Source: an uncultured Candidatus Saccharibacteria bacterium
GTDB taxonomy: Bacteria > Patescibacteriota > Minisyncoccia > Phycocordibacterales > Phycocordibacteraceae
Assembly: GCA_964607655.1 (NCBI GenBank)
Contig: CAZSKX010000003.1
Span: forward strand, 4,160 to 68,159
Direction of reading: 5' to 3'
Length of the DNA: 64,000 nt
The notes beneath the pieces are model-generated. The model was not told the origin of the DNA. It was given only the letters and a program-made list of their open reading frames with translations, and did no database searches. The position numbers were made by a program, and so were the translations under genes. The number at the start of each line of letters is the position of its first letter. The first letter of the stretch is position 1. Shown one piece after another: positions 29,731 to 45,180 of the stretch.

Positions 29731-30522
29731 CTAGAGCGCAAAGAGTCTTTGGGCGTTTGCGAGAAGGGTCTGTCGGACAGTCTCTGTGTTTTCTTGGCGG
29801 ATCTCGGCGATCTTCTCCACCACGTCGACTACCGAGAGCGGGTCGTTGCGCTGACCACGCCGGGAGGAGGGGGCGACGTAGGGAGCATCGGTCTCGGCGA
29901 GAATGCTGTCGAGAGGAACGTGTTTAATCACCTCGTCGTAGTCGCGAGCAAAAGTAACCACTGCCGTGAAGGAAAGCGTAAATCCGAGTGCAACGAGAGC
30001 GTCCGCTTCTTTGATCCCGCCGACAAAGAAATGAATGTCACCACGAAGGTTTGAGTTCGCGCTTTTTGCCTCATGCAAAATCTCGATCAGATCTTGATAC
30101 GCATCTTGAGTCCCCTTACTCGGACGCGCGTGGATGATGAGCGGCTTATCGAACTCTGCGGCGAGTGCAATGTGTTTTTTAAACAATTCTTTCTGTTTGG
30201 CTTTGACACCATCGTTCACCTCGAGCGGTCGAAAATAATCGAGCCCACACTCCCCCACTGCCACCACACGCGGATTTCTCAGAAGCCCGCGGAGCGTCGC
30301 CTCATCAAAAGGCTCATCGTGATTAGGGTGCTGTCCTACTGAGGCGTAGAGATGCCCGTGCTGCTCCGCATGCATCACTGCCTTTGTCGAAGATTCTGCG
30401 TCGACACCGACGACAATTCCCGCCACCTGCTCGTCTCGCATCTTCTCGATCAGCGCGTCGCGATCAAGGTCGTATTGGTCGAACTGCACATGGCAGTGCG
30501 CGTCGAAATACTTAGGCGTCAT
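29731..30522 (-). CDS. TatD-family metal-dependent DNase/hydrolase
   Basis: 'YFDAHCHVQFDQY' and downstream His/Asp motifs of the TatD family. Confidence 0.8.
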   Translation of the reverse strand: MTPKYFDAHCHVQFDQYDLDRDALIEKMRDEQVAGIVVGVDAESSTKAVMHAEQHGHLYASVGQHPNHDEPFDEATLRGLLRNPRVVAVGECGLDYFRPLEVNDGVKAKQKELFKKHIALAAEFDKPLIIHARPSKGTQDAYQDLIEILHEAKSANSNLRGDIHFFVGGIKEADALVALGFTLSFTAVVTFARDYDEVIKHVPLDSILAETDAPYVAPSSRRGQRNDPLSVVDVVEKIAEIRQENTETVRQTLLANAQRLFAL

Positions 30523-31955: not shown

Positions 31956-31961
31956 ACTTCT

Positions 31962-33023
31962 CTACTTCGCGTGTGTGTGCACACGACGCTTGCGCTTGTC
32001 GTAGTCGGAGAGGAGCTCGAGTAGGGCTGCCGCCACCGGCACCGAGAGCAACACGCCCAAGAAACCGACGAGTGTGTACCCGGCAATAAGTGCAACAATA
32101 ACCAAGAGTGGCGGTAGGCCAACCACCTTCTTTACAATAAGCGGATAGATCAGGTTTGATTCAAACTGGTTCACTACTATATAGAGCCCAGCGACGATGA
32201 GCGCTAGGGTAACGCCGTCATGCGAGTAGGCCACCGTTATCGCGAGGAGCCCGGCCACAAGACCGCCAAAGATCGGAATGATCTCTGCAAATGCGGTAAA
32301 AACAGCGAGCAATAGCGCATACGGCACGCCGAAAATAACGAGACCAAGGTATATGAGCATCCCAACAATGACCGACAAGAGAAGCTGTCCCTGCATCCAC
32401 AGACCGATCTTCTTCTGCGCTCGTCTCCAGAGGTCGACTGCATAGTCCTCGTGGCGCACCGGGACGACCAGGCGCAAAAAGTCGTCAACGCCCGTATCCT
32501 GTAACGCGAAGTAGAACGAGAGGACCACCACGAGAACAAAAGAAAGGATCCCGCCGAAAAAGGCAATGACGAGGTGCGTCGCGCCGCTGCTGCTAGTGCT
32601 AAAGGCGTACTGGAGAGAGAAGAGGGAGCGCACAAGATCCTGCAACTCTTGGCCGCTACCGAGAAGATCGGTAGCGCTGGAAAGATTGCTGATCGAGGCC
32701 GGTATATTAAGGGTATTAACATACTGCGGAATAACCGAAAGGAAGTCGAGTGCGTCAGCGACGATCGGCGGGAAGAAGAGATATAGCAGTATAAAAACAG
32801 ACGCAAACGTAAACACATAAATCAGCAGCACGCTCAAGAATCTCGGCATCTTCCGTCGCACAAAAAAGAGCACTCCCGGCTCGATCGCTGACGCGATCAC
32901 GATCGCCGTCACCACAAGGAGCGCCAGATCCCGAAGCACCCAAAAGATATAGGCCCCCGCAACGATTGCGACAGCCTTTACGATAGTACCTGCGGTGATG
33001 GAGACGTTAAGCTCGCGGTCCAT
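31962..33023 (-). CDS. AI-2E family transporter (PF01594-like permease)
   Basis: 8-TM topology with the conserved mid-protein loop typical of the UPF0118/AI-2E family. Confidence 0.6.
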   Translation of the reverse strand: MDRELNVSITAGTIVKAVAIVAGAYIFWVLRDLALLVVTAIVIASAIEPGVLFFVRRKMPRFLSVLLIYVFTFASVFILLYLFFPPIVADALDFLSVIPQYVNTLNIPASISNLSSATDLLGSGQELQDLVRSLFSLQYAFSTSSSGATHLVIAFFGGILSFVLVVVLSFYFALQDTGVDDFLRLVVPVRHEDYAVDLWRRAQKKIGLWMQGQLLLSVIVGMLIYLGLVIFGVPYALLLAVFTAFAEIIPIFGGLVAGLLAITVAYSHDGVTLALIVAGLYIVVNQFESNLIYPLIVKKVVGLPPLLVIVALIAGYTLVGFLGVLLSVPVAAALLELLSDYDKRKRRVHTHAK

Positions 33024-33044
33024 ACGAGCATCCTAGCATATTAG

Positions 33045-34373
33045 CTATATATTGAGGGCGGTTCGTAGTCGGTCAGCCGCCTGATCAACCGTGAGACGCT
33101 CCTGCTCGCCCGTGTCACGATGGCGTAGCGTGACGGTATCTTTGAGCTCTGGATTCTCGCCGAGCGTATCGAAGTCGATCGTGATGCAGAACGGTGTACC
33201 GATCTCATCTTGGCGACGGTAGCGCTTGCCAATATTGCCGTTATCATCCCAGGCAATAGCCGGATGTACCTTCTGGAGCGCCTGCCGCACTTCCCTCGCC
33301 TTCTCGACAAGCTCGGGTTTATTTTTCAAGAGCGGCGAGACCATTGCCTTAACCGGCGCCACCTCCGGCGCGAGCGCGAGATACACACGCGATTCGTCTC
33401 CCATCGTATCTTCTCGATACGCACTCGCGAGTACTGCGAGTACGGTACGCTCGACACCGAAGGACGGCTCGATCACGTGCGGGACAAAACGTTCCTTCGT
33501 CTCTTCGTCGAGGTACGAGAGATCGACACCCGAGGTCTCGGCATGGCGAGAGAGGTCGAAGTCGGTGCGGTACGCCAAGCCCCAGAGCTCCTTGCGCCCT
33601 TGTGGGAAGTCAAATTCGAAATCGATCGTACGCTTCGAGTAGTGTGCGAGATCTTCGGGCGCGATCTCGAGCTCGTGCACACTCGCTTCGGGAAGGCCGA
33701 TACGTGTGGCGTACTCGTGCATCAGCACACGCCATTCTTCAAACGCGCGCTCCCAGTCACTCGGCTTTACGAAATACTCGATCTCCATCTGCTTCAGCTC
33801 ACGCAAGCGGAAGATGAAGTCGCGCGGCGCGATCTCGTTACGAAAAGCCTTCCCTACCTGTGCGAGACCAAACGGAATCTTCGGGTGCATCGAGTCGAGC
33901 ACGTTTTTATAGTTCACGAACATACCACCCGCAGTCTCGGGGCGCAGGTACACCACCGACGACTCGTCCTCCATCGCCCCCGCGTGCGTCTTGAACATCA
34001 TATTGAAAGCACGTGGCTCGCCGAGCTTCCCGCCACACTCCGGACAGGTGGTCTGATCCTCGAGATGATCCGCACGGAAGCGACGCTTACACTTCTCACA
34101 TTCAACTAGGGGGTCGGCAAAGCCAGAGACGTGGCCCGACGCCTCCCACGCCTTTGGGTTCATCAGGATCGCCGCGTCGAGCGGGTACATGTCGTCACGA
34201 TGGTTAACCAGGAGGTCAAACCATATCTGCTTAATATTCTCTTGGAGCAGGACGCCAAGCGGGCCGTAGTCGTAAGTGCCCGCGAGCCCGCCGTATATCT
34301 CCGAGCCCGGGAATATAAACCCGCGGCGTTTACAGAGCGAGACGATCTTCTCCATCAAGGTGAGCTCAGCCAT
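33045..34373 (-). CDS. glycyl-tRNA synthetase (alpha2 dimeric, archaeal/eukaryote-like type)
   Basis: 'GFIFPGSEIYGGLAGTYDYGPLG', class II motifs, and 'FDFPQGRKELWGLAYRTDFDL'. Confidence 0.85.
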   Translation of the reverse strand: MAELTLMEKIVSLCKRRGFIFPGSEIYGGLAGTYDYGPLGVLLQENIKQIWFDLLVNHRDDMYPLDAAILMNPKAWEASGHVSGFADPLVECEKCKRRFRADHLEDQTTCPECGGKLGEPRAFNMMFKTHAGAMEDESSVVYLRPETAGGMFVNYKNVLDSMHPKIPFGLAQVGKAFRNEIAPRDFIFRLRELKQMEIEYFVKPSDWERAFEEWRVLMHEYATRIGLPEASVHELEIAPEDLAHYSKRTIDFEFDFPQGRKELWGLAYRTDFDLSRHAETSGVDLSYLDEETKERFVPHVIEPSFGVERTVLAVLASAYREDTMGDESRVYLALAPEVAPVKAMVSPLLKNKPELVEKAREVRQALQKVHPAIAWDDNGNIGKRYRRQDEIGTPFCITIDFDTLGENPELKDTVTLRHRDTGEQERLTVDQAADRLRTALNI

Positions 34374-34384
34374 AGAAAGCCTGA

Positions 34385-36280
34385 TTATCGCACAGTTCCG
34401 TTCCCTGCAATATACCCTGCCTCAGTTGAGGTTTCGGTATTCACCGGAGCGGCTGCCGCCTGGATCGTGATGCCCGCAAATCGATCGTGACCACTAAAAC
34501 TCATCAGGTTGGTAAGGAGCGGCGCTCCTCCGATCTGCGACGTAGAAGGAAGAAGTGAGACCTGGAAATACCCCTTGGCACTTCCCCCTTGAGGCAAGTC
34601 TCCAGTCTTCCAAGTAACTTTCCGCACAGTTGGATCATAAGAAAAAGTGCCCGTCCCTCCTGTTTTCGCCGTGTACGTGACGTACCCAGGCAAAACAGTA
34701 GTCACTGACCCATCGGCGATCGCACTTCCTGGATTTCGCGCCGTCCATTCTATAGTGTAGGTCGTGGGCTGATCTGGCCTTGGCGGGACGGGGCCTGAGT
34801 TTGGAAATGGCCCGGTTTTATGAAGCGTCGCGGCAGCGAGCGTAACGCCGGTCACCACCTTTGCTGTACGGGTGAGCGACGACTGTACTTCCTCAGGCAC
34901 GTTGCGCTGCCCTTGACGTATGCCTGCGATCGAAACGGTAAGCACCACCGTAGGAGAACTTCCTGCACTCGGAAGTGTCTTGAAGGAGAAGCTTCCCAAT
35001 CCCGACGCGCCCGGCGCAAAGCTTGCAAGTGAGGGGTCTGCGTCCTGACTGAAAATAACCGTGCGATCACTCGAACGATAGAAACCTTGTGTGCTTGTAA
35101 TACTGCTGTAGTCGACAGCACTGCCTGAAAGCGTGACTGCAACTGAGAGATTGTTCACTGCGGTAGATAGTGTGTTGGCATAGGAGATCGTGACGTTTTG
35201 AGAAGCGCCAGCCTTTAAGATCGGACTTGCTGACGAATCTCCGTTTATGACGAGATTGGTGGTGATAAAGGGTGCCGTAATAGCAACCGCGGCCTCCTGG
35301 CTCATATAGGTAACCGCGAGCGCCGTATCGGTAGCGCTTTTAGCAGTCCCGACGTTGAAGTGGAAAACTCTCTCTTCTTGCTCCTGCCCGTTCAGCACTC
35401 CCGTGAGCGTGATGGTCTTACTCGACCCCGGAGCCATAGTGCCGAGAAGGAAGCTGGTCCCCGTGAGCGGCACCGAAGAATTTGTCACCGAGAAGCCAAA
35501 GGGAAAGTCGCCTGCAAGAACAACGTTTTCGAGCGGGAGGGTGGCGTTTGAGCGCACCGTGAGCGCAAAGGTGATCGGCTTTCCTGACACGGTCTCTGAG
35601 AGCGTGTTCAGGGAGAGCTCGAGTGGGGTGGTCGAGATGCCGAGCGTATATGACGTTTTCTTTTTAAAGTTCGCGTTTGTCCCGCTTGTTGTGTAAGAGA
35701 GCGACGCAGGAAGTGTGACTGTCTGCCCTGCCCCACCAAAGAGCACGGCGCGCAGGGAGCGTGTGACCGTCTCCCCGCTCTCTATGCGCCCCACGTTTTC
35801 TGTATACCGAGGATATGCTTCGAGCGTATTGCTTGCATTACGCGTGCTCTCAGGAAAATCTATTTCAACAATCGCGTTCTCGATAGCAACCGCATTTTTG
35901 TTGGTGATGATAAGTTGCAGCGGGACAGTATCTCCACCCGCAATCGTGGTCGGGCCCTGGATCGTGAGGTCTATTTTGTCACTCGATACGGAATTGCTGC
36001 CAAAGTAGAAAAAGTATCCCGCTACTCCCAAGGAGATAAGAAAGAAGATGACCGCAAAGCTAAAGAAGTTGCTGGCCCACCGCGTCGGCTGGGCGGTCGC
36101 TCCAGAGGCCTGGGCCAAAACAGCCACGTCTTCCCAAGCGTGCGGAAGTTTCGGATCTCCAGAGACTGACAGCGGCTGACGTTCGACAGTCGGCGTCTCA
36201 TCGGTCTTATAGAGCTTGTGGCGCGCTTCTTCGAGCGCGCCCGTAGTGTCCTTGTCGGGTATTGGAAGCGTCTCAGGCAT
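34385..36280 (-). CDS. large membrane-anchored extracellular hypothetical protein (Thr/Ser-rich, Ig-like repeats)
   Basis: A single N-terminal TM anchor 'FFSFAVIFFLISLGVAGYFFYF' is followed by repetitive beta-rich sequence. The likely start is 'MPETLP'. Confidence 0.45.
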   Translation of the reverse strand: MPETLPIPDKDTTGALEEARHKLYKTDETPTVERQPLSVSGDPKLPHAWEDVAVLAQASGATAQPTRWASNFFSFAVIFFLISLGVAGYFFYFGSNSVSSDKIDLTIQGPTTIAGGDTVPLQLIITNKNAVAIENAIVEIDFPESTRNASNTLEAYPRYTENVGRIESGETVTRSLRAVLFGGAGQTVTLPASLSYTTSGTNANFKKKTSYTLGISTTPLELSLNTLSETVSGKPITFALTVRSNATLPLENVVLAGDFPFGFSVTNSSVPLTGTSFLLGTMAPGSSKTITLTGVLNGQEQEERVFHFNVGTAKSATDTALAVTYMSQEAAVAITAPFITTNLVINGDSSASPILKAGASQNVTISYANTLSTAVNNLSVAVTLSGSAVDYSSITSTQGFYRSSDRTVIFSQDADPSLASFAPGASGLGSFSFKTLPSAGSSPTVVLTVSIAGIRQGQRNVPEEVQSSLTRTAKVVTGVTLAAATLHKTGPFPNSGPVPPRPDQPTTYTIEWTARNPGSAIADGSVTTVLPGYVTYTAKTGGTGTFSYDPTVRKVTWKTGDLPQGGSAKGYFQVSLLPSTSQIGGAPLLTNLMSFSGHDRFAGITIQAAAAPVNTETSTEAGYIAGNGTVR

Positions 36281-36300
36281 CCCCTTCAGTATACACGGGG

Positions 36301-36864
36301 TCAAAGCTCTGAGGCACTAATGCCTTGATTAATTCTTTGTATGTATGCAGCCCGCTCCTTGAGAACCTGCTGTAAAAACGATTCTTCGTATCCATTTGGG
36401 TTTACCGCATCTCCCGCATCAAGGCCAAGCAGGCCGAGCAGTCTCAAGACTGCCAGAAGCTCGATTGCTTCATGAAGTTCGACTGGTCGGTCACGCAATG
36501 CGGCAAGGAATCCCCTGACCACCTCGAACACACGTTCGTCACGCGCCTCGTCCGCAACGAGCCTCAAGAGCAGGCCGGTCACGCGCGCAACACGCTCACG
36601 CCCCGGGTGAGGTAGCACTTTGGCCCATTGTTCTTCCAGCACTGCCCCGACGACTCGCCATCCCTCCTTTCCTTGCACGAGCATCACCTCACTTTCAGAA
36701 AGCGTCGTCAGGCCATGAGCAAGTTTCGCCCCTGGCTTTCTGATCCCCTGGGCTCGTGCACGCACCAGTCCGACCGTCGGTGTAAGTAGCGTAACAAGTG
36801 AGTTGGCTTCGCCGAGCGAGGTACGCGCAAGAACAATCCCTCGCGTATCGTATTTATGCCGCAT
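36301..36864 (-). CDS. recO: DNA repair protein RecO (short form)
   Basis: N-terminal OB fold '[36 protein letters not shown]'. Confidence 0.55.
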
Positions 36865-39800
36865 CGCGTACGAGGTTAAACCGTTTCTCTCCCGTCGAGA
36901 GTGTTACCCCGTACTTCCCTCCTTCGACCACTTCCGTACGTACTTTGTCGGTAGGAGCCAGCTGCTCTTGCTTACGCGCGTCTGCAATCGCACGGGCGAA
37001 CTCTCGCTCATCGCCCTCTTGTACAAGCTCGGGGGTAAGCACCGTGTCGAGCGAAAGCGTCTCGCCCACGCTTACCTGCTTCACATTGATCTCCTCGGCG
37101 AGCACCGCAGCGAGCTCGAGCGGAAGTCCTCCATTGATGGTGACGCTCGCGAGCGGCTGGCGCACCTTGATCCCTGCCTTCTGGCGCAGCTGGAGCGCTT
37201 CTGAGGCAAGTGCCCGAACGCGAGCCATCTCGCCGACAAGATCGACCTTCGGTGCTGTTTTGAAAAGTTTCGTGAGCGTAAACGCCTCCCGCTTAGGCTC
37301 TGGCCACGCAGCTAAGTGCACACTGATCGGATCGCTCTCTTCACGCACCGAGCGGAAGATCTCTTCGGCGAGGAAAGGTGAGAAGGGGGCGAGTAGAAGC
37401 GCGCATGTCCGAAGCGTCGTGCGAAGGGTCTCGAGCGCCGCACTATCACCCTCTCGAGCTCGATCGCGCACTCGCCGCACATACCACTGCGACAAGTCTT
37501 CGGCGAGTGCTGCCACTCCTCGCGACGCTTCAAAGAGCTGATAGTGGTCGAGAGCCTCCGTCACTTCGTAGACGGCCTTCTCTAACCGCGCCTCCATCCA
37601 CTGGTCAAGGATCGTAGGGGTTGCTTCGACACGTGGAACCTCCTTAAAGAGGTCGTAAAACTTTGTACTGTTGTCGAGCCACGAGAGCACCTTCGCGGCC
37701 TCCTTCACCGTCTTCGGGTCAAAGTTCTTCGAGTCACCCGCCTGGCTCACGCTGTACATCCAGAAGCGGAGCGCATCGACACCGTACCGGTCGATCTCAT
37801 CCATCGGGTCAGTCACGTTCCCTTTCGACTTACTCATCTTCTGACCGTTCGCGTCGAGGAGATGGCCGAGACAAATCACGTTTTTAAATGGCGCTCCGCG
37901 TCCAGCGAGTACGCCGACGGCAAGGAGCGTGTAGAACCACCCACGCGTCTGGTCGATCGCTTCAGAGATAAAATCCGCAGGATACGCTACCTGCTTCATA
38001 TACTGCTCGAGCGTTTGCTCCCCGCGCTCTTTCGCCGCCTGAGCGAAGGGCATCGCGCCGGAGTCAAACCATACGTCCATCACCTCTTTAACTCGGCGGA
38101 GCTCAGTCCCCTTCTCGCTCACGAGCACCACGTCGTCGATATACGGCCGGTGCAGATCAAGCTCATAATTTTCATTGTGTGGCAGCGGAACGAAGTCAAA
38201 CTCGGCGACTTCTGCGAATTTAGCGCTACTAATGACCTTATTTAGGATCTCATTTGCCGCAATTGCGTCAGCTCCTTCAACGAGGACCGCGAACGACTCA
38301 AAGGCCACGCCGTGCGTAACGATAAGCACCTTTTCGTTCTTCGTCTTCTCCTCTAGTTCGTATACAAAAGATCCCAATCGGTTTTTGGCGTCTGCGTAAC
38401 TCTCTTCACCCCCCGGAACTAGATCGAGGTAGCCGTGAGTCTTCTTCCACGCCCAAAAAGCCTCGTGGGCACCCGGCTTGTTCTCTCCATCAAACTCTCC
38501 GAAATCAAACTCCCGTAGCCGGTCATCGTACGCGATCGCTTCTTTAGGGAAACCGAGACTCGTCGCAACCATCTCTGCCGTCTCTTTGGTGCGCAGGAGC
38601 GGCGAAGCGTAGATCTTTGTGATGCCCATCGTTTTAAGTTCTTCGATACTTGCCCTCACCTGCTCCTTCCCTTTTTCAGTCAAACCATTTGGCGTGCCGA
38701 TCTTCGAATCAAAAAACTTCTTTGCGTTCCCTTCGGCTTCGCCGTGACGCATTAGGAAGTACTGGTTGCCCGATTTCTTTGTGTGCTTCTTAAGTTCGTC
38801 GATTGAACCAGCAAGCGCCTGTTCGCTCCCGTCAGCACTCATCCAGACCGGAAGCGGTGTCCCCCAGTACCGCTCGCGACTGATCGCCCACTCCTTTGCG
38901 TTCGTGAGCCACTCGCCCATGCGCCCGTCGCGAATATGTTCTGGTTCCCAGTTGACCTTCTTGTTTTCTGCCACGAGCGTTCCTCGCAGGTCGTGAATGC
39001 GGATATACCACGAGTCCCGTGCGTAGTAGATGAGGCGAGTCTTGCAACGCCAGCAGAAGGGGTAGGTGTGCGTGTACGATTCTTTTTTAAATAAAATGCC
39101 CTGAGTCTGGAGATTCTTAAGGATCTCGACCGCCGTACTTTCTTCGATCACCGCACGCCCGGTAAGGAAGTCGGTTCCTTCGACATACTTCCCTTCAGGA
39201 TTTACCAAGTGAACCTTCGGTAGGCCGCGATCGCTGCCGAGGTCGAAGTCTTCTTGGCCATACATCGGCGCGATGTGCACGATGCCCGTACCCTCGTCAG
39301 TCGTGACGAAATCAGCATCATATACCGCATACGCGTGCTTAAACTTCGCGCGTTCTTCTTCGCGCGCGACCTCCTGGGCAAAGGCATAGACCGGCTTGTA
39401 GCGCTTCCCGATGAGCGCCTCCGCGAGCACATCCCCTGTGCGCTTCCACTCGGCTCCGAGCACCGCCTCAGCGCGTGCATCTGCGAGGATGACGTGCGTG
39501 CCGTCCTTCTCGTATTTACCGTATGAAATATTCTTTCCGATCGCGAGCGCGACGTTCCCGGGAAGCGTCCACGGCGTCGTGGTCCAGGCGAGCAAGAAGG
39601 TGCCCGGCTCACCCATGAGCTCAAACTTCACCATCACGGTGATGTCCTTCACCTCCTCGTAGCCCTGCGCGAGCTCGTGCGACGAGAGTGAGGTTCCACA
39701 GCGCGAACACCACGGCACCACGCGGTAGTCCTTATAGAGCCGGCCCTCCTTCGCGATATGCGCCATGATGCGCCACACCACCTCGATGTACGAGTTGTCG

Positions 39801-40249
39801 TAGGTGAAGTAGGCGTTCTTTGCGTCGACCCAGTAGCCGATGCGTCGCGTTACGTTCGCCCACAGGTCGATATAGGTCGCTGCCGTCTCACGACACTTTT
39901 TATTAAATGCGGCGATGCCGTACTTCTCGATATCTGGCTTACCGGAAAACCCAAGCTCCTTCTCAACCTGTAGCTCGACCGGGAGTCCGTGCGTATCCCA
40001 GCCCGCGCGACGGGGGACGTGATACCCACGCATCGTCTTATAGCGTGGAATCGCATCCTTGAAAGCGCGCGTCTCGAAGTGGCCCATGTGCGGCTTACCG
40101 TTTGCACCCGGCGGACCTTCGTAGAAAACAAACTCGCCCATGGGCGACGGCTTCTCGAGTGACTTCTCGAAGATCCTCTCACGCTCCCAAAACTCAAGCA
40201 CCGCCTCTTCGCGCTTGGCTGTTTCTGACTTCTCGGGCGCGTCGGCCAT
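36854..40249 (-). CDS. ileS: isoleucyl-tRNA synthetase carrying an inserted histidine-phosphatase (PGAM-family) domain
   Basis: HIGH region '[13 protein letters not shown]', editing-domain '[11 protein letters not shown]', '[14 protein letters not shown]', and 'KMSKSKGN'. Between '[13 protein letters not shown]' and 'HRPYIDD' lies a roughly 190-aa segment '[11 protein letters not shown]...[11 protein letters not shown]...LIVTHG', a His-phosphatase fold. Confidence 0.9.
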
Positions 40250-40289
40250 ATCTCACTATCGTAGCGTTTATGCGACAAAAAAGAAACGG

Positions 40290-40330
40290 GGCCACGCGGA
40301 TGTCTCCGCGTGGCCCCATATTTTGTTGTG
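40290..40330. terminator. terminator hairpin
   Basis: 'aaacggggccacgcgg atgtct ccgcgtggccccatattttgttg'. Confidence 0.65.
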
Positions 40331-40343
40331 GTCGTGGCCTTGG

Positions 40344-40589
40344 TCAGATGTGAATGAGCAGCTCCCGCGAGCGCTGGGTCCGGCTCATCTCCTGGGCGAA
40401 GGCCATCACCGCCGGGTGGACGGGAGCGAGCTCCCTGCCCTTCTTCGGATCAGAGAGCTTCGTGCGGATCTTCTCGAGCTCCGCAGTGGCGTCGATCTCC
40501 GCGCCGCTCTTCTGGACGTGCTCGACCAGCTTCTCGAGCGGAACCTTGGCCCGCTTCGCTTCATCCCTCACCAATTGGGCATCCTTCAT
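40344..40589 (-). CDS. small hypothetical protein (81 aa)
   Basis: Stand-alone ORF with its own downstream terminator, lying between argS and ileS. I recognise no family. Confidence 0.35.
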   Translation of the reverse strand: MKDAQLVRDEAKRAKVPLEKLVEHVQKSGAEIDATAELEKIRTKLSDPKKGRELAPVHPAVMAFAQEMSRTQRSRELLIHI

Positions 40590-40677
40590 GCGTTAGTACG
40601 CTCCTTGTGGCTGCACGTGTGCCGCACAGTCCAAGGAGGACTCTACAACACTAGGAGGTTGGGCGCAAGGCCTTAAA

Positions 40678-42363
40678 TCACATCCTGTCCGGTGTCGGGA
40701 TGCCGAGCAGCGTGAGGCCATTCGTCATCGTGTTGGCGAAGGCCTGTGCGACGCGCTGTTTGTACGCTTCTTCAGGGCTCCCGAGCACTTGTTCGTTTGC
40801 ATAAAAAGCGTTCCAGGTAGAAGCGAGCTCAGTGAGATACGTGAGCAAGTAGTTGGGCGCGAGCTCTCGCGCTGCGCGCGCGACCACCTCGGGGTAGTGC
40901 AGGAGCGCGCGCTCGATCGCGTATGGCTCTGCCGGCTCCTCGCCCCCCTTCTCGCCGTTGGTCGCGTAGGTGAGGATCTTCTTCGCGCGCACGAGTGCGT
41001 ACTGCAGGTACGGCCCTGAGTCGCCCTCAAGCGAGAGCGACTTCTCTGGGTCGAAAATAATGTCTGACCCCGGCGACTGCCGCAGCACCATATATTTAAT
41101 CGCGCCGATCGCGACCTGTTCAGCGATGAGCGGATCCTCATTCTTCTCACTCGCCTTCTTTACAATATCTTCGATAAACCCAGCGGCAGTGATCACATTC
41201 CCCTCGCGCGAGGACATCTTACCGGTGGTTAGTCGCAAGAAGCCGTGCGGCACGTGGATGGTCTTCGCCGCGAGGAGCGGCGCGACCTCCTTCATCGCGG
41301 CAAAGATAACCTTGAAATATTCACTCTGCTCTGCGGCCGTGAGGATAATGCTCTCGTCTGACGGCCATCGCTCCTCCTTTAAGAACGCGAGGCCGAGATC
41401 CTTCGCCTCGTAGAGCGGCGTCCCGCGGCTCGTGATAAATACCCGAGTGTGGAGCCCGACCTTCTCGCCCTTATACACCACCGCGCCCTCGCTCTGTTCG
41501 AAAATGCCTTTGGCAAGCCCGTCATGTACTACCTGGATACCGCGCGGCGCCGCGTCACTATCGAAGAAGAAGAAATCAAACTTGGTGTCGAGCAGCTTCC
41601 AGATCCGCGTAAACGCCTCCATCGAGACATCGCGCCCCTTACGCCAGAGCTCCATGAGCGCGTGATCCACACCCTCGTACAGCGCCGTATTAAGCGCGTC
41701 GATCTCGGCCTTCGCCGCCTCGTCCTCTTCATAGGCCTTATTGCCCTCCGCATACGCTGTGCCGATCTGCTCAGCACTCTCTGGCTCAGCGACTCCTTTC
41801 TTCTGCAATTCCCAGATCGCCTTCGCTACGTGCGGTCCAACGTCTCCCCCGTAGGTATCGCGCGCCATCGTCGCGCCCGCATTCTCTACCAGCCGGGAGA
41901 CCGCCTCGCCGATGATCGTGCTCATCAGGTGCCCGATGTGCATCGGCTTAAAGGCGTTTGGATTCGAGTATTCGATAATCACCCGCTTACCCTCCTTCGA
42001 CTTACCCTTACCCCAGTCGCTCCCCTGTGCTACCGCCTCGGCCACTGCAAATGCCACTTGCTCGCGCGCGAGGGTGATATTGATAAACCCCGGGCCGGCC
42101 ACTTCAACTTTCGACACTTTATCGCTCAGCTTCTTCTGAATCTTCTGTGCTAGCTCCTCGGCAAGCTCTCGAGGATTCTTTCCCAGCGCCTTAGCCGCGG
42201 CCATCGCCGCGTTGGTCGTATAGTCGCCAAACTCCGCGCTCGCCGGGCGCTCCACGGCAAAAGAAACTCCTTCTCCCACCTCGCCGAGAACGGCCTTGTG
42301 TATCAGCTCCTCCATTAAGCCGAGTGTACCAGATTCGCCTGAATTATTTGAACATCTGCGCAA
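40678..42363 (-). CDS. argS: arginyl-tRNA synthetase
   Basis: Class I 'PMHIGHLMSTIIGEAV' and a C-terminal DALR anticodon-binding region. Confidence 0.9.
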   Translation of the reverse strand: MRRCSNNSGESGTLGLMEELIHKAVLGEVGEGVSFAVERPASAEFGDYTTNAAMAAAKALGKNPRELAEELAQKIQKKLSDKVSKVEVAGPGFINITLAREQVAFAVAEAVAQGSDWGKGKSKEGKRVIIEYSNPNAFKPMHIGHLMSTIIGEAVSRLVENAGATMARDTYGGDVGPHVAKAIWELQKKGVAEPESAEQIGTAYAEGNKAYEEDEAAKAEIDALNTALYEGVDHALMELWRKGRDVSMEAFTRIWKLLDTKFDFFFFDSDAAPRGIQVVHDGLAKGIFEQSEGAVVYKGEKVGLHTRVFITSRGTPLYEAKDLGLAFLKEERWPSDESIILTAAEQSEYFKVIFAAMKEVAPLLAAKTIHVPHGFLRLTTGKMSSREGNVITAAGFIEDIVKKASEKNEDPLIAEQVAIGAIKYMVLRQSPGSDIIFDPEKSLSLEGDSGPYLQYALVRAKKILTYATNGEKGGEEPAEPYAIERALLHYPEVVARAARELAPNYLLTYLTELASTWNAFYANEQVLGSPEEAYKQRVAQAFANTMTNGLTLLGIPTPDRM

Positions 42364-42578: not shown

Positions 42579-43307
42579 TCATGGGTTTTTGAGTGCTGCT
42601 TGCAATGTATCCTTACTGTAACGCTCGGGCACATACCCGTCAATCGAGCGTATGTTTGCTTCATAACGCAGGTCACTCCCATCAATATTCTTAACGATCA
42701 GATCGACTGTGATTCGATCCCCAAACTCCGATTTGAGCTTGTTAACATTTTCTCGTGCTTGAAAGTATTGTTCGACAAACGAATCTCTCGGTATCACCCG
42801 ACCCTCTCGCTGCTCACGTGCCTGAGCGAACTTCCAAGCCTGCAACGGGTCTTGATACACATAGAGGATCTGTACGAGCCGCTCCTTCTCTAGACTTCGC
42901 TCGATGTTCTCTCGAGCTCGCTCAAGGTTGGAGAGTGTCCCATCAAAGACGTAGCTCTGATGATTATGGAGGGCCAGGTCCTGCATCTTATCGGCAAGAA
43001 TAGACGTCGCACCCTGAAAGAGGCGTGAATTCGATCCGTTATATTCTTTGAACTCCTCTCGCAACTCATCTGCGTCTATCCGCAATACGGCATCCCTCCG
43101 CCCTGCGAGCCGCTCAATAAGCCGGAATGATGACTCGGTTTTACCCGCCCCTGGCGATCCCGCCATAAAGACCGAGACCGGCTGGGCGTCGGGCGGAAAG
43201 AGATTGATATCGGTGCGCCTCTTGGCAATAGCTACTTTATTTTTGTTCGCCTTTGCAAAAGCCAGCGCTTCTTCTTGGATCCGCCGGTCCTCTTCGGTCA
43301 TGCTCAC
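42579..43307 (-). CDS. zeta-toxin-like P-loop kinase (PF06414-like)
   Basis: Walker A 'FMAGSPGAGKTE' in a roughly 240-aa zeta/PezT-like architecture. Confidence 0.6.
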   Translation of the reverse strand: MSMTEEDRRIQEEALAFAKANKNKVAIAKRRTDINLFPPDAQPVSVFMAGSPGAGKTESSFRLIERLAGRRDAVLRIDADELREEFKEYNGSNSRLFQGATSILADKMQDLALHNHQSYVFDGTLSNLERARENIERSLEKERLVQILYVYQDPLQAWKFAQAREQREGRVIPRDSFVEQYFQARENVNKLKSEFGDRITVDLIVKNIDGSDLRYEANIRSIDGYVPERYSKDTLQAALKNP

Positions 43308-43384
43308 ATTCTACTCCAGGCCCCACCACTTTCCCGCCCCGTCTTCCACCTCCAGACTGTGCTCTTAGTCTTAAGGGTCATAAG

Positions 43385-43972
43385 TCATTTTGTCACTATA
43401 ACCGTCCCCACAAGCTCCACGTGTTTGTTCAGCAAATAATTTGCTACCCGCGGCAATTCATCATAGATATCAATCGATCCATTCGTAATGATCTGCTTTG
43501 GCTTTCTTTTGCCGTCAACTTTGTCTATTACGTAGCGGTACCTCACACCAATCGAGATCACCGAGATGATGCCTTGGGCGTCAACCGAGACAGAAACTCC
43601 TGATCTGCCTCGATGGGCTATGTACTGTCTCATGGCCTCTAAAATTGAAAACTCGGAAGAATGATCAATTTGCTCCCAAAACAAAAAAAGATTCCTTGAA
43701 TTTTGCTCAAGCTCCTTCTTGAAAGAAGGATTCCAAGAGACTTGATAAGGCGCTCTGTTAAGGCCTGATTGGATGTTGATAATCTGCAACATCATTTGGG
43801 AAGCCGCGTGCAATTCAAATATGCACGCATCCAAAAAATAATAGAATTCATTCTGTATTGAGGTTCTCTTCCGAGGATCGAATTCTTTGCTTCGCAACTT
43901 TTCAAAAAAGAAACGGGCTGCATCAATTTTAGTATTGAAAGCTTCAGACAAAGATTCCACTGTCTCGACCAT
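43385..43972 (-). CDS. hypothetical protein (195 aa), AT-rich, upstream partner of zeta-like kinase
   Basis: I recognise no motifs. Its codon composition resembles the foreign island. Confidence 0.4.
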   Translation of the reverse strand: MVETVESLSEAFNTKIDAARFFFEKLRSKEFDPRKRTSIQNEFYYFLDACIFELHAASQMMLQIINIQSGLNRAPYQVSWNPSFKKELEQNSRNLFLFWEQIDHSSEFSILEAMRQYIAHRGRSGVSVSVDAQGIISVISIGVRYRYVIDKVDGKRKPKQIITNGSIDIYDELPRVANYLLNKHVELVGTVIVTK

Positions 43973-44016
43973 ATATCTAGTCTCTAGACTTTTTAAGTCA
44001 CATCCAGAAAGTCCCT

Positions 44017-45180
44017 CTATCGGTTCCCCTTTGCTCGATTATGCGTTTTGCAAAGCATCTGGCAGTTTGCCGCATCTGTCGCCCCGCCCTTACTCCAGGC
44101 CGCCACGTGATCAGCGTCCATGTCGGCCAGACCCCAGATCTTTTCTTTATTGGCGTCGTGTCCCATTGCACACAGCGGGCAATTTGATTCTCCCTTCTCC
44201 TTGGTCGCTGCAGTCTGCGCCTCATAGACTGAGCGCTTGGTCGCCTCGTCAAACATGCGCACGTCCAGCAGCTTGGTATCCACTTCACCACCCAATACGT
44301 ACTCAAAAATCCCTTTTCGACTCTTGACGTGCGCATCTCCATAGAGGCGTTGAACCGCTGCGGAAACTTTCGCAGGATCGTATGATTGCTTGTGATACGT
44401 CTTATATAGTCGATTCCACTCGAGTCCCTTCATTTCACTCTCAACGTCGATAAACGTCGTCGATACCCAATTTATCACCGTATCGAAATGTTTCTTCAGG
44501 CCAGTAATATCAGCATCTTGTCGGTGCTGGCTCATATAGCTATCAATCGCTCCATCAGAAACCCAGTCGAGGGCTTGCTCGAGATAAGCCTGGCGCTTCA
44601 CCTCACCTGAAATATAGGCACTCCACTTCTGGACGTTCGCATTCTGGCTGTTACTGAACTCCTCGCGCGCACGTGTCACAAACGGACCAGAGTACACGGC
44701 ATTCAATATCTCTTGCTCCGTTAGAGGGACTCCGGCAATATTGATCGTCCTGAACCAGTCTTTGATTTCAGGCTCTTCGCCCTCGCATATATATATGAGC
44801 AATTTCGTATTCAAGATCATCTCTCGTTGTACATCGGCCATGCCAGTGTAGTATTGCTCGTGCCCATTTTGATCCTTCACAGCAAACTTTCCAGTTACAA
44901 ACCGGCCAATACTGGTAATGCGCTGCTGTCCGTCGAGAACCTCGAGCTTCTTCTCGCCGGTCCGATTGAAATACATCACACCAATTGGATAGCCTTTTAC
45001 AATAGAATCGACCACTCCCACGTCACGCTTGCCATCGGCGTAGATGTAGTTGCGCTGGTACTCAGGCTGGATCGTGAGCGTGCCCGATAGACCAAAGAGC
45101 CCCTTGCCTTCTAGCTCATTGTACTCAAAGCCATCGACGACTTCTCGAATTGTAATGTCTGTTTTCAGTGCAGTATTCAT
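44017..45180 (-). CDS. DUF262 (ParB-like, DGQQR motif) + C-terminal HNH nuclease; GmrSD-like/type IV-like restriction endonuclease, short form
   Basis: 'LEVLDGQQRITSI' DUF262 signature and a C-terminal HNH 'CPLCAMGHD...DHVAAWSKGG...NCQMLCKTHNRAKGN'. Confidence 0.7.
   Translation of the reverse strand: MNTALKTDITIREVVDGFEYNELEGKGLFGLSGTLTIQPEYQRNYIYADGKRDVGVVDSIVKGYPIGVMYFNRTGEKKLEVLDGQQRITSIGRFVTGKFAVKDQNGHEQYYTGMADVQREMILNTKLLIYICEGEEPEIKDWFRTINIAGVPLTEQEILNAVYSGPFVTRAREEFSNSQNANVQKWSAYISGEVKRQAYLEQALDWVSDGAIDSYMSQHRQDADITGLKKHFDTVINWVSTTFIDVESEMKGLEWNRLYKTYHKQSYDPAKVSAAVQRLYGDAHVKSRKGIFEYVLGGEVDTKLLDVRMFDEATKRSVYEAQTAATKEKGESNCPLCAMGHDANKEKIWGLADMDADHVAAWSKGGATDAANCQMLCKTHNRAKGNR

What the first reader, a model, noticed from the sequence alone, without database searches (positions are those of the whole stretch)
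38180..38770. Histidine-phosphatase (PGAM-like, RHG motif) domain inserted inside isoleucyl-tRNA synthetase
The IleRS ORF is continuous (1131 aa). It carries a roughly 190-aa segment '[11 protein letters not shown]...LLRTKETAE...VLIVTHG' between the conserved '[16 protein letters not shown]' and 'HRPYIDDV' catalytic-core elements. This is neither the CP1 editing domain nor an intein: there are no Cys/Ser...HN splice junctions. A phosphatase fold fused inside an aaRS catalytic domain is unusual. It could hydrolyse a nucleotide or alarmone, or mis-activated aminoacyl-adenylate.
Basis: seen in the sequence. Interest (0 to 1): 0.65.

Follow-up and report, generated by a model that had tools for sequence, protein, structure and literature searches.

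The report
Phosphatase domain nested inside isoleucyl-tRNA synthetase
The enzyme that loads isoleucine onto its tRNA in this bacterium carries a complete, apparently working phosphatase inside its catalytic body; hundreds of related ultra-small (CPR/Patescibacteria) bacteria share this design, no paper I could find describes it, and what the phosphatase acts on is unknown.

Summary
The ORF at 36854-40249 (-) is an uninterrupted 1131-aa type-2 IleRS (TIGR00392, 805 bits). Residues 492-693 (window 38171-38776) form a branch-1 histidine phosphatase (PF00300, E 8e-34). It sits at the tip of the variable CP3 subdomain, where solved IleRS2 has about 3 residues.

It is neither an artefact nor an intein. 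The argS-ileS-recO locus is syntenic in 67-78 of 80 related loci. All 120 closest homologues carry the insert, and so do at least 384 GTDB species (Paceibacteria). The catalytic set R501/H502/R553/E580/H646 is essentially invariant, while HIGH, KMSKS and the editing motifs are intact.

The pattern is wider than the finding. The same domain is nested at three different loops around the KMSKS region in IleRS and ValRS of other CPR classes, in 1-4 copies. One IleRS has a HAD phosphatase in its place, and some also carry GNAT, P-loop kinase or DUF559 domains.

The function is inferred. I read it as an active small-molecule phosphohydrolase, probably tied to the adenylation reaction (about 0.35). 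An autonomous 'hitch-hiking' enzyme (0.3) and a tRNA- or KMSKS-dephosphorylating module (0.17) remain open. No paper describing this was found. I class it as a new variant of a known kind, interest about 0.62.

The parts
36854..40249 (-). ileS: continuous 1131-aa type-2 isoleucyl-tRNA synthetase carrying the nested phosphatase
   Evidence: ORF. TIGR00392 scores 804.9 bits. The best PDB match is 8c8u IleRS2, E 3e-218. The full-length AF2 model has pLDDT 83.3 and TMt 0.77 to 8c8v.
40079..40090 (-). HIGH signature motif, here the canonical H54-M-G-H57
   Evidence: Translation. 115 of 120 homologues have the swapped G/AxHH form instead.
39050..39661 (-). CP1 editing domain (about aa 197-400), intact
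   Evidence: WTTTPWTL is present in 118 of 120 homologues and GTGIVH..YG..(E/D)DF is conserved. PDB editing-domain hits 1wk8 and 1wny cover aa 196-397. The model pLDDT is above 90 here.
38861..38890 (-). CP2-CP3 linker motif W454-AISRERYWG-463, an active-site-lining element in IleRS
   Evidence: Sequence. The homologous yeast segment 453-ARDWNVSRNRYWG-465 lines the tRNA-CCA/reveromycin pocket (PMC7955072).
38777..38860 (-). N-terminal arm of CP3 (aa 464-491); the ancestral Zn-knuckle CxxC has been lost ('SADG')
   Evidence: Alignment to 8c8u 'CEGC'. The motif WxSADGx is conserved in homologues. The CP3 definition and the Zn motif in Thermus IleRS come from PMC7191050.
38171..38776 (-). The insertion: a nested branch-1 histidine phosphatase lobe, aa 492-693
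   Evidence: Boundaries and translation. The Pfam core covers aa 498-661. The domain model has pLDDT 93.7 and pTM 0.91. Foldseek matches metabolite phosphatases 4ij5, 6s2q, 4qih and 1h2e with E 5e-12 to 1e-9 and TM about 0.7.
38765..38779 (-). N-terminal neck motif K491-K-S-G-N495 (S493 and N495 invariant)
38741..38749 (-). R501-H502-G503: the RHG motif, with H502 as the predicted phospho-accepting nucleophile
   Evidence: Invariant in 120 homologues. Retained in essentially all complete copies among 190 nested or standalone relatives.
38591..38593 (-). R553, the second phosphate-binding arginine (SPxxRxxxTA motif)
   Evidence: Invariant.
38510..38512 (-). E580, the predicted general acid (proton donor)
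   Evidence: At least 90-98% conserved, with E or D in relatives.
38312..38314 (-). H646, the second catalytic histidine (VTHG motif)
   Evidence: Invariant.
38174..38188 (-). C-terminal neck motif P688-L-P-H-N692, returning the chain to CP3
38078..38170 (-). C-terminal arm of CP3 (aa 694-724: [13 protein letters not shown]...); the second Cys pair of the Zn knuckle has been lost ('SEKG')
   Evidence: Alignment to 8c8u 'CPVC'.
37826..37840 (-). KMSKS loop (K804-S808)
   Evidence: Translation. Identical in 120 of 120 homologues.
37145..37606 (-). Anticodon-binding domain (aa 882-1035)
   Evidence: Pfam Anticodon_1, E 3e-25.

Best explanation
SHOWN: The gene is the resident housekeeping type-2 IleRS of a Paceibacteria-type (CPR/Patescibacteria) bacterium. 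A complete branch-1 histidine phosphatase domain of about 200 aa is nested at the tip of the peripheral CP3 subdomain, where an ancestral zinc knuckle has lost its cysteines. The synthetase keeps its HIGH, KMSKS, CP-core Zn and editing motifs. The phosphatase keeps the full catalytic set (R501, H502, N508, R553, E580, H646), which has been maintained across hundreds of species. So the protein is a bifunctional enzyme, not a decayed relic.

INFERRED (mechanism I commit to): The IleRS body charges tRNA-Ile normally. The phosphatase lobe is held on a conserved two-stranded neck (KKSGN / PLPHN). It removes a terminal phosphoryl group from a small molecule through a phospho-H502 intermediate, with E580 protonating the leaving group. 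Phosphatase domains have been nested repeatedly, and among the heterologous hosts seen only into IleRS and ValRS, at three loops that flank ATP-, adenylate- and KMSKS-lining elements. On one occasion the nested domain is a capped HAD phosphatase and not an HP. For these reasons I judge the substrate to be tied to the adenylation reaction: a by-product or ligand such as AMP or another adenine nucleotide, or the terminal phosphate of PPi, hydrolysed at the source.

Layered confidence: identity and architecture about 0.97; catalytically active phosphatase about 0.85; functionally coupled to the synthetase in any way about 0.55; this specific small-molecule, adenylation-linked reading about 0.35.
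For: The gene is not an artefact and is the housekeeping copy. All 120 best homologues (61-88% identical, drawn from NCBI, JGI, ENA and Logan) have PF00300. 384 GTDB species representatives match the junction peptides. The argS-ileS-recO-DUF11-class II aaRS synteny is present in 67-78 of 80 loci.

The phosphatase looks active. The catalytic residues are invariant although the insert overall is more variable than the core (47% against about 70% column identity). They are retained in essentially every complete copy among 190 related domains, including each copy of the 2x and 4x tandems. The fold is confidently predicted (pLDDT 93.7) and is closest to the 200-aa metabolite phosphatases PspA, GpgP, PhoE, CobC and the riboflavin HFP. 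All dPGM, CobC and PspA equivalog models score below cutoff.

Recurrence and host specificity point to coupling. ValRS carries the HP at the same CP3 Zn-knuckle site (P0252; TIGR00422 876 bits) and at a second site (P0274). The ValRS clade (Falkow-, Kuenen- and Uhrbacteria) is patchy, with close relatives lacking the insert. Gracilibacteria and Peregrinibacteria IleRS carry the HP at sites 2 and 3. P0464 has a COG0546-type capped HAD phosphatase at site 2 and no HP. Among the 150 most similar representative proteins, the only heterologous hosts are IleRS (102) and ValRS (7); the rest are standalone HPs, HP-HP tandems or fragments.

The sites lie next to active-site elements. Site 1 follows the WxISRxRYWG linker that lines the tRNA-A76 pocket (PMC7955072). 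Site 2 immediately precedes the (E)xxDQxRGWF helix; that this helix binds the adenylate ribose is from my own knowledge of Thermus IleRS structures. The neck motifs are invariant and the model pLDDT there is about 90 or higher.
Against: I therefore could not measure the distance or orientation of H502 relative to the synthetic site, the KMSKS loop or tRNA A76.

The HP 'lid' (aa 585-613), which normally shapes substrate specificity, is the least conserved part of the insert. Copy number varies from 1 to 4 and three different loops are used, so precise geometry cannot be essential.

CP3 is a peripheral subdomain with variable topology. In human IARS1 it serves as a protein-docking surface (PMC7191050; PMC13439101), which fits a merely permissive site. 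Unrelated enzymes are nested in the same loops in Gracilibacteria IleRS: GNAT, DUF559, P-loop kinase, even a Y1 transposase domain. This suggests general landing pads and not a phosphatase-specific need.

HP enzymes are not established pyrophosphatases or AMP-specific nucleotidases. The host bias is partly a consequence of seeding the search with an IleRS-borne domain.
Confidence: 0.38

Rival explanations
1. Autonomous 'hitch-hiking' enzyme. The phosphatase is an ordinary housekeeping metabolite phosphatase, beneficial to the cell in its own right. It became lodged in permissive surface loops of an essential, constitutively expressed gene in these streamlined genomes. It works independently of aminoacylation, and IleRS merely provides expression and a scaffold.
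For: The fold and sequence are those of generic 200-aa metabolite phosphatases. The closest non-nested relatives are standalone HPs from the same phylum, for example MDD5098287.1 'histidine phosphatase family protein [Ca. Paceibacterota]' at about 35% identity, and HP-HP tandems. The lid is hypervariable. Copy number and insertion site vary. CP3 is peripheral and variable. Other unrelated enzymes are nested in the same loops. The insert's pI (about 5.7-6.1) is like that of standalone relatives, with no sign of adaptation to RNA binding.
Against: Nested insertion is mechanistically much harder than terminal fusion, yet it happened at least five times: IleRS sites 1, 2 and 3, and ValRS sites 1 and 2. 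It occurred in two paralogous synthetases of three CPR classes. No other host protein appeared among the 150 closest representatives. The neck motifs are invariant, which suggests fixed docking and not a loose tether.
Confidence: 0.3
2. Macromolecular 'de-blocking' module. The phosphatase acts in cis on a phosphorylated macromolecule that blocks charging. One candidate is a 3'-phosphate or pyrophosphate on the tRNA CCA end, left by nucleases or added by toxSAS toxins. The other is a phospho-serine on the enzyme's own KMSKS loop, added by a HipA/HipT-type toxin kinase. On this reading the synthetase repairs its own substrate or itself.
For: Both precedents for the lesions are documented. [quoted passage not shown] The IleRS has K804-M-S-K-S808. 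All three insertion sites flank the KMSKS region in sequence. Tethering would make a conserved specificity lid unnecessary, which fits the variable lid. Some Gracilibacteria IleRS co-nest an AAA_33/Zeta-type P-loop kinase with the phosphatase. Its best PDB hit is the RNA-repair kinase Pnkp1 (4xrp), though weakly (E 7e-4), and the composition recalls kinase-phosphatase end-healing enzymes.
Against: No histidine-phosphatase-family RNA-end phosphatase is known to me. The insert is mildly acidic and no more basic than standalone relatives. The alternative nested phosphatase in P0464 is a capped COG0546-type HAD, a class that normally encloses small molecules. In the papers read, CP3 is not described as contacting tRNA. 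The Pnkp1 match is marginal, and kinases occur in only about 5 of 120 Gracilibacteria-type proteins and not in this window. Geometry could not be measured.
Confidence: 0.17
3. Non-catalytic role. The HP fold replaces the lost zinc knuckle as a structural brace, a dimerisation module (many HPs are dimers) or a phosphometabolite-sensing regulatory domain, without turnover.
For: The CP3 Zn ligands are lost exactly where the domain is inserted. HP-HP tandems and doubly inserted IleRS suggest the domain likes to pair. The neck is rigid and conserved.
Against: All five or six catalytic residues are invariant over divergences at which the rest of the domain has fallen to about 35% identity, and in every tandem copy. 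This includes the general-acid Glu, which binding alone would not require. ValRS P0252 keeps its Zn knuckle and still hosts the domain.
Confidence: 0.1
4. Artefact: a misassembly, a chimeric ORF joining two genes, or a pseudogene.
For: None, beyond a modest GC dip over the insert (0.50-0.53 against 0.57-0.62 in the rest of the gene).
Against: The ORF is uninterrupted. The same architecture appears in 120 clusters from four data sources, in 384 species genomes and with conserved synteny. A ValRS analogue was found on 24 or more independent contigs. The IleRS halves on either side are each incomplete without the other.
Confidence: 0.01

Closest known systems
Type-2 isoleucyl-tRNA synthetase (IleRS2), e.g. 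Priestia megaterium IleRS2 (PDB 8c8u/8c8v) and Thermus thermophilus IleRS (1ile)
   Same: Same enzyme family and domain order: Rossmann fold with HIGH and KMSKS, CP core Zn site, CP1 editing domain, CP2, CP3, anticodon-binding domain and a type-2 C-terminus. E 3e-218; the model superposes with TMt 0.77.
   Different: About 202 extra residues forming a histidine phosphatase are nested at the tip of CP3, where 8c8u has about 3 residues. The four CP3 zinc-knuckle cysteines (CEGC...CPVC in 8c8u) are replaced by SADG...SEKG.
Standalone branch-1 histidine phosphatases of about 200 aa: H. thermophilus phosphoserine phosphatase PspA (4ij5), B. stearothermophilus PhoE (1h2e), M. tuberculosis GpgP Rv2419c (4qih), CobC alpha-ribazole phosphatase
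   Same: Same fold (Foldseek E 5e-12 to 3e-9, TM about 0.65-0.75) and the same catalytic residues RHG / R / E / H.
   Different: Those are free, often dimeric enzymes with defined substrates. Here the domain is nested, matches only profile positions 2-162 of 194 (the C-terminal tail is replaced by the return strand to CP3), has a hypervariable lid, and scores below every NCBIfam equivalog cutoff (CobC 83 against 163; dPGM 78 against 225; PspA 58 against 350).
NCBIfam NF040702 'ileS_w_GNAT' (isoleucine--tRNA ligase, N-acetyltransferase domain-containing)
   Same: A curated precedent for a foreign enzyme domain nested inside IleRS. The Gracilibacteria and Peregrinibacteria proteins that carry the GNAT usually also carry the histidine phosphatase.
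   Different: The window protein has no GNAT and scores 317 bits against a 1999-bit cutoff. In those proteins the HP sits at sites 2 or 3, not in CP3.
Known bifunctional proteins containing a histidine-phosphatase domain: 6-phosphofructo-2-kinase/fructose-2,6-bisphosphatase (1tip) and the mycobacterial RNase H/acid phosphatase Rv2228c type (NF005567)
   Same: An HP domain is combined with a second catalytic activity in one polypeptide. NF005567 matches the insert at E 3e-22, and 1tip is among the fold hits.
   Different: Those are end-to-end fusions. Here the HP is inserted inside the partner's catalytic domain, and the partner is a translation enzyme.
Lineage-specific insertions in class Ia synthetase catalytic domains (variable CP3 of IleRS; the leucine-specific domain of LeuRS)
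   Same: The loops of the second half of the Rossmann fold are known to tolerate lineage-specific subdomains. CP3 differs in topology between Candida, Thermus and Staphylococcus IleRS (PMC7191050).
   Different: Known insertions are small (30-70 aa), non-enzymatic modules. Here the insert is a full enzyme with its own active site.

Membership tests
Isoleucyl-tRNA synthetase (TIGR00392; type 2 / IleRS2) | Whole-protein match above the curated equivalog cutoff | tested here: met
   804.9 bits against a 621.4 cutoff, in two stretches split by the insert. PDB IleRS2 8c8u, E 3e-218.
Isoleucyl-tRNA synthetase (TIGR00392; type 2 / IleRS2) | Class I signature motifs HIGH and KMSKS | tested here: met
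   HMGH at aa 54-57 and KMSKS at aa 804-808.
Isoleucyl-tRNA synthetase (TIGR00392; type 2 / IleRS2) | CP1 editing domain with the Thr-rich and GTGxVHxAPxxGxxD motifs | tested here: met
   WTTTPWTL at 222-229 and [16 protein letters not shown] at 320-335, conserved in homologues. Editing-domain PDB hits.
Isoleucyl-tRNA synthetase (TIGR00392; type 2 / IleRS2) | Type-2 C-terminal organisation (no C-terminal Zn-binding domain of IleRS1) | tested here: inconclusive
   The protein aligns to IleRS2 8c8u through residue about 979. DUF5915 scores 26.8 bits, just under the 27-bit cutoff. MupA and MupB (IleRS2-type) are the best non-ileS models.
Isoleucyl-tRNA synthetase (TIGR00392; type 2 / IleRS2) | Aminoacylation of tRNA-Ile, and being the cell's only IleRS | not testable with these tools
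   Only inferred, from intact motifs and the conserved argS-ileS-recO synteny. Whole genomes could not be scanned for a second ileS.
Histidine phosphatase superfamily, branch 1 (PF00300) | Profile match above the gathering threshold | tested here: met
   117.4 bits against 21.7, E 8e-34, aa 498-661.
Histidine phosphatase superfamily, branch 1 (PF00300) | Catalytic core: RHG nucleophile His, two Arg, second His, acidic proton donor | tested here: met
   R501, H502, G503, R553, E580 and H646 are present and invariant or near-invariant.
Histidine phosphatase superfamily, branch 1 (PF00300) | Alpha/beta fold of the superfamily | tested here: met
   AF2 domain model with pLDDT 93.7. Foldseek to 4ij5, 6s2q, 4qih and 1h2e with probability 1.00 and TM about 0.7. 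This is a predicted, not a solved, structure.
Histidine phosphatase superfamily, branch 1 (PF00300) | Phosphatase (or mutase) activity | not testable with these tools
   Needs an enzyme assay.
Cofactor-dependent phosphoglycerate mutase (dPGM) / CobC / PspA / SixA equivalogs | Score above the curated equivalog cutoff of the specific family | tested here: not met
   CobC TIGR03162 83.4 against 162.9; dPGM_arch 78.1 against 225; GpmB 61 against 261; PspA 58.4 against 350; PRK01295 54.8 against 316. No specific substrate family can be assigned.
Intein | Hint/splicing domain; Cys/Ser/Thr as first residue; His-Asn followed by Cys/Ser/Thr at the C-junction | tested here: not met
   Pfam finds no Hint or LAGLIDADG domain. 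The insert starts at K491/K492. The only HN (aa 691-692) is followed by Glu or Asp in all homologues. The whole insert is accounted for by an HP fold.
NF040702 ileS_w_GNAT | Score above cutoff, and presence of a GNAT domain | tested here: not met
   316.8 bits against 1999. Pfam finds no acetyltransferase.

The most novel reading that the evidence does not exclude
CPR class Ia synthetases (IleRS, ValRS) carry built-in 'self-defence or repair' enzymes. On this reading the nested phosphatase removes a blocking phosphate before charging. That phosphate could be a 3'-phosphate or pyrophosphate on the tRNA CCA end, left by nucleases or added by toxSAS. It could also be a phospho-serine placed on the KMSKS loop by HipA/HipT-like kinases. 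In some lineages the phosphatase is accompanied by a PNK-like kinase, a GNAT and a nuclease. This would be a synthetase-resident counter-measure to tRNA- and aaRS-targeting toxins, a function not known for any aminoacyl-tRNA synthetase.
Probability: 0.15. Interest if true: 0.9.

Novelty: new variant of a known kind. Interest (0 to 1): 0.62.

Why it matters
Aminoacyl-tRNA synthetases are among the most conserved and best-studied enzymes. Their known insertions are editing or RNA-binding modules, not independent metabolic enzymes. Here a catalytically intact phosphatase sits inside the catalytic domain of an essential synthetase across a whole class of bacteria. Parallel acquisitions are seen in ValRS and in other CPR classes, including one by an unrelated phosphatase fold.

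If the phosphatase is coupled to the synthetase, it would reveal a new layer of control or protection of tRNA charging, such as product removal or de-blocking of tRNA or enzyme. That would be in organisms with minimal genomes and host-dependent lifestyles.

If the phosphatase is autonomous, it is still a striking natural example of repeated domain nesting. It would also map three permissive loops useful for engineering class Ia synthetases. In either case the patchy ValRS clade gives a ready-made natural experiment, and the protein is straightforward to express and assay.

Tried and rejected
**Geometry.** The full-length AF2 model was obtained, but its coordinates are not exposed in /data. I could not measure distances from H502 to the synthetic site, KMSKS loop or tRNA. 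Foldseek on the whole model only returned IleRS structures.

**Domain tree.** A Biopython NJ tree of 185 HP domains timed out. I replaced it with nearest-neighbour identities, which do not resolve the number of independent captures, since everything lies at 35-45%.

**Literature.** Ten searches found no paper describing a phosphatase in IleRS or ValRS. Term searches of two recent IleRS evolution and structure papers (PMC10485003, bioRxiv 2026.02.03.703510) found neither 'phosphatase' nor 'Patescibacteria'.

**Neighbourhood test.** I looked for a standalone HP gene next to an HP-less ValRS (P0362) and found none, but only one locus was examined.

**Mobile-insertion signs.** There are no flanking direct or inverted repeats at the insert borders and no Rfam element, such as a T-box, within 36-43 kb.

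**Nucleic-acid-binding adaptation.** The insert's pI is about 5.7-6.1, the same as standalone relatives.

**Rejected readings.** These are an intein (junction residues and fold), the CP1 or an ordinary IleRS subdomain (absent from all solved IleRS), a dPGM mutase or specific CobC, PspA or SixA identity (all below cutoff), aminoacyl-adenylate hydrolysis (wrong chemistry for a phospho-His enzyme) and misassembly.

**Weak leads.** The GNAT of P0404 has only generic RimI-like PDB matches. The nested kinase of P0480 matches RNA-repair Pnkp1 only marginally. I treat both as leads, not evidence.


Full report
**1. Observation**

The window carries a single uninterrupted ORF at 36854..40249 on the minus strand, 1131 aa long.
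- Pfam splits tRNA-synt_1 into two stretches around a His_Phos_1 match at aa 498-661, E 8.2e-34.
- NCBIfam calls the whole protein ileS: TIGR00392 scores 804.9 bits against a cutoff of 621.4, and the next-best models are the IleRS2-type MupA and MupB.
- Against solved structures the best match is Priestia megaterium IleRS2 (8c8u, E 3e-218). Query 8-491 aligns to chain 8-479, and query 694-1122 aligns to chain 483-909.
- So about 202 residues (aa 492-693, window 38171-38776, verified by translation) replace roughly three residues of a loop.

**2. Where exactly the insert sits**

The insert follows the W454-AISRERYWG motif by about 30 residues and precedes [13 protein letters not shown]...DVWFDSG.
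- In yeast and Candida IleRS this interval is the CP3 subdomain (Sc 459-526). The WxxSRxRYWG linker lines the tRNA-CCA/reveromycin pocket (PMC7955072; PMC7191050).
- CP3 is peripheral and its topology differs between species. It carries a zinc motif in Thermus IleRS. In human IARS1 it is a protein-docking surface (PMC13439101).
- In 8c8u the two arms of CP3 carry CEGC and CPVC. In this protein and its homologues they read SADG and SEKG.
- The phosphatase is therefore nested at the tip of a CP3 hairpin that has lost its zinc knuckle.

**3. Is the gene real and functional?**

- All 120 best homologues (61-88% identity; NCBI, JGI, ENA and Logan assemblies) carry PF00300. Those with a name are labelled Paceibacteria, Kaiserbacteria, Parcubacteria or Minisyncoccia.
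- A scan of one genome per GTDB species with the two junction peptides found 384 species with a confirmed relative.
- In the 80 loci retrieved, the neighbours of the window gene are conserved: argS upstream in 67, recO in 73, a DUF11 protein in 78 and a class II aaRS in 64 downstream. This is the orthologous housekeeping ileS locus.
- KMSKS is identical in 120 of 120 homologues. The CP-core zinc cysteines and both editing motifs are conserved.
- The full-length AF2 model (pLDDT 83.3, pTM 0.72) superposes on IleRS2 with TMt 0.77. It predicts the insert as a confident separate unit, with pLDDT above 90 over aa 490-700.
- Misassembly, a chimeric ORF and a pseudogene are excluded.

**4. Is the phosphatase intact?**

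- R501, H502, G503, N508, R553, E580 and H646 make up the complete branch-1 catalytic set. All are invariant or at least 90% conserved in the 120 homologues. The insert as a whole is more variable than the core, at 47% against about 70% column identity.
- I scanned 1.84 billion cluster representatives with the insert and extracted 190 related domains. Essentially every complete copy keeps R-H...R-E/D-H. This holds in proteins whose IleRS core is only 34-45% identical to ours, and in every copy of doubly and quadruply inserted proteins.
- The isolated domain folds with pLDDT 93.7. It is closest to 200-aa metabolite phosphatases: PspA 4ij5, mycobacterial hydrolase 6s2q, GpgP 4qih, PhoE 1h2e, a riboflavin-pathway HFP 9mmh, and CobC.
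- Every specific equivalog model (CobC, dPGM, GpmB, PspA) scores far below its cutoff, so no substrate can be assigned by homology.
- The lid segment (aa 585-613) is the least conserved part of the insert.
- The two neck motifs (KKSGN at 491-495, PLPHN at 688-692) are among the most conserved parts.

**5. The phenomenon is much wider than the finding**

Among the representative hits, complete or partial ValRS proteins also carry the domain.
- In P0252 (TIGR00422, 876 bits) the domain lies inside a retained CP3 zinc knuckle (PAWYCRDC...[HP]...CKCG...DTLDTWFSSG). This is the site homologous to ours.
- In P0274 it lies in a second loop, between DTWFSSG...GWP and FHPTSVMETGYDILFFW.
- P0123 has four tandem copies.
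- The ValRS clade belongs to Falkow-, Kuenen- and Uhrbacteria and is patchy. About 25 of the 120 closest ValRS have the insert, while close relatives of about 880 aa lack it.

Gracilibacteria, Peregrinibacteria and Peribacteria IleRS almost all carry PF00300.
- It usually sits at a third site, between the post-KMSKS helix and the anticodon-binding domain (P0412).
- It is often also present at site 2 (P0148, P0404, P0465).
- Many of these proteins additionally nest a GNAT (the NCBIfam 'ileS_w_GNAT' type), a DUF559/Vsr-like nuclease domain or an AAA_33/Zeta-type P-loop kinase.
- One protein, P0464, has a COG0546-type capped HAD phosphatase at site 2 and no histidine phosphatase.

Among the 150 closest representatives, the only heterologous hosts are IleRS (102) and ValRS (7). 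The remainder are standalone proteins of about 200 aa, HP-HP tandems or fragments. One standalone example is annotated as a Paceibacterota histidine phosphatase.

**6. What it most likely does**

*Shown.* The protein is bifunctional: an intact IleRS plus an intact phosphatase active site, maintained by selection and inherited vertically in a large clade.

*Inferred.* The phosphatase turns over a terminal phosphoryl group via phospho-H502, with E580 as general acid. This is the established chemistry of the superfamily.

*Arguments for a link to the synthetase reaction:*
- There were at least five independent nestings, into two paralogous class Ia enzymes in three CPR classes.
- The three loops used border active-site elements. 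Site 1 follows the CCA-pocket linker. Site 2 directly precedes the xxDQxRGWF helix, which in Thermus IleRS contacts the adenylate; this point is from my own knowledge. Site 3 follows the KMSKS region.
- An unrelated phosphatase fold substitutes for the HP in one protein.
- The neck is invariant and confidently modelled.

The metabolite-type HP fold and the capped HAD both point to a small substrate. My committed guess is hydrolysis of an adenylation-linked small molecule: AMP or another adenine nucleotide, or the terminal phosphate of PPi. I give this about 0.35.

*Arguments against a link:*
- The lid is hypervariable.
- Copy number (1-4) and insertion site vary.
- CP3 is peripheral and variable.
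- Unrelated enzymes are nested in the same loops.

All of these fit an autonomous 'hitch-hiking' phosphatase at permissive landing pads (about 0.3).

*De-blocking rival (about 0.17).* The phosphatase would remove a 3'-phosphate or pyrophosphate from the tRNA CCA end, or a phospho-serine from the KMSKS loop.
- For: HipA and HipT phosphorylate the KMSKS serine of class I synthetases (PMC6581861). toxSAS enzymes pyrophosphorylate the CCA end. Some Gracilibacteria proteins co-nest PNK-like kinases, although the Pnkp1 match is weak (E 7e-4).
- Against: the domain's neutral-to-acidic charge and the capped HAD.

*Other rivals.* A purely structural or sensory role gets about 0.1, because the general-acid Glu and both His are invariant. 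An artefact gets about 0.01.

**7. Comparison with what is known**

- The host is a member of IleRS2. All testable defining features are met.
- The insert is a member of histidine-phosphatase branch 1: profile, catalytic residues and predicted fold are all met.
- It is not a member of the dPGM, CobC, PspA or SixA equivalog families, of inteins, or of ileS_w_GNAT.
- The closest precedents are NCBIfam's ileS_w_GNAT, the end-to-end HP fusions (PFK-2/FBPase-2 and the RNase H/acid phosphatase type), and the small lineage-specific CP3 and leucine-specific insertions of class Ia enzymes.
- Automated annotations already display the architecture. JGI uses 'isoleucyl-tRNA synthetase/phosphohistidine phosphatase SixA/...GNAT' and NCBI uses 'class I tRNA ligase family protein'.
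- Ten full-text searches found no description of it. Term searches of the two most relevant IleRS evolution and structure papers found neither 'phosphatase' nor 'Patescibacteria'.
- I class it as a new variant of a known kind.

**8. Limits**

- Whole genomes could not be scanned for a second ileS, a standalone HP, ppa or toxin kinases.
- The number of independent insertion events rests on site mapping, not on a resolved domain tree.
- The host-specificity argument is partly biased, because the search was seeded with an IleRS-borne domain.

Noticed in passing
window 40079-40090 (aa 54-57 of IleRS): The window protein and its 4 closest relatives have the canonical HIGH motif H-M-G-H. 115 of the 120 homologues have the swapped G/A-x-H-H form, which was shown experimentally to give IleRS2 mupirocin hyper-resistance (PMC10485003). 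The window lineage therefore looks like a natural reversion inside a 'hyper-resistant-motif' clade.
   Followed up: partly
window 42579-46286: A four-gene island lies next to argS: Zeta-toxin-family kinase, Cthe_2314-like HEPN, GmrSD plus HNH nuclease, and an EcoRI-type adenine methyltransferase. None of the four has a match in any of the 80 syntenic loci from related genomes, so it looks like a strain-specific defence or toxin island.
   Followed up: partly
window 30519-42363: Four aminoacyl-tRNA synthetase genes lie within 12 kb on one strand: MetRS 30519-31955, a class II aaRS with an HGTP anticodon domain 33045-34373, IleRS, and ArgRS 40678-42363. An AI-2E transporter, a 639-aa DUF11 protein and recO are interspersed. 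The argS-ileS-recO-DUF11-class II order is conserved in most of the 80 related loci.
   Followed up: partly
window 36854-36864: The ileS stop codon region and the recO start overlap by 11 nt, which suggests translational coupling or an operon.
   Followed up: no
window 38200-38800: GC content dips to 0.50-0.53 over the phosphatase insert, against 0.57-0.62 in the rest of ileS. This could reflect amino-acid composition or a remnant of foreign origin. There are no flanking repeats.
   Followed up: partly
window 40250-40677: The 428-nt spacer between argS and ileS has no Rfam match (no T-box or other leader) at gathering thresholds.
   Followed up: partly
related proteins P0404, P0415, P0416, P0464, P0465, P0480, P0486 (Gracilibacteria/Peregrinibacteria IleRS, 1370-1860 aa): These IleRS proteins are 'Christmas trees' of nested enzymes. 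They carry one to three histidine phosphatases plus a GNAT acetyltransferase, a DUF559/Vsr-like nuclease domain (once inside the CP1 region) or an AAA_33/Zeta-type P-loop kinase. One has a HAD phosphatase and no HP. Per the precomputed Pfam list, one even has a Y1 transposase domain.
   Followed up: partly
related proteins P0123, P0252, P0274, P0292 (ValRS of Falkow-/Kuenen-/Uhrbacteria): ValRS carries the same phosphatase at the homologous CP3 zinc-knuckle site or at a second loop. P0123 has four tandem copies, all with intact catalytic residues. Close ValRS relatives lack the insert, which gives a natural presence/absence contrast.
   Followed up: partly
related proteins P0181, P0186, P0190, P0191, P0205, P0206, P0237, P0247, P0265 (about 400-450 aa): Free-standing tandem HP-HP proteins are among the closest non-synthetase relatives of the insert. 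This hints that the domain tends to work as a pair, or pseudo-dimer.
   Followed up: no
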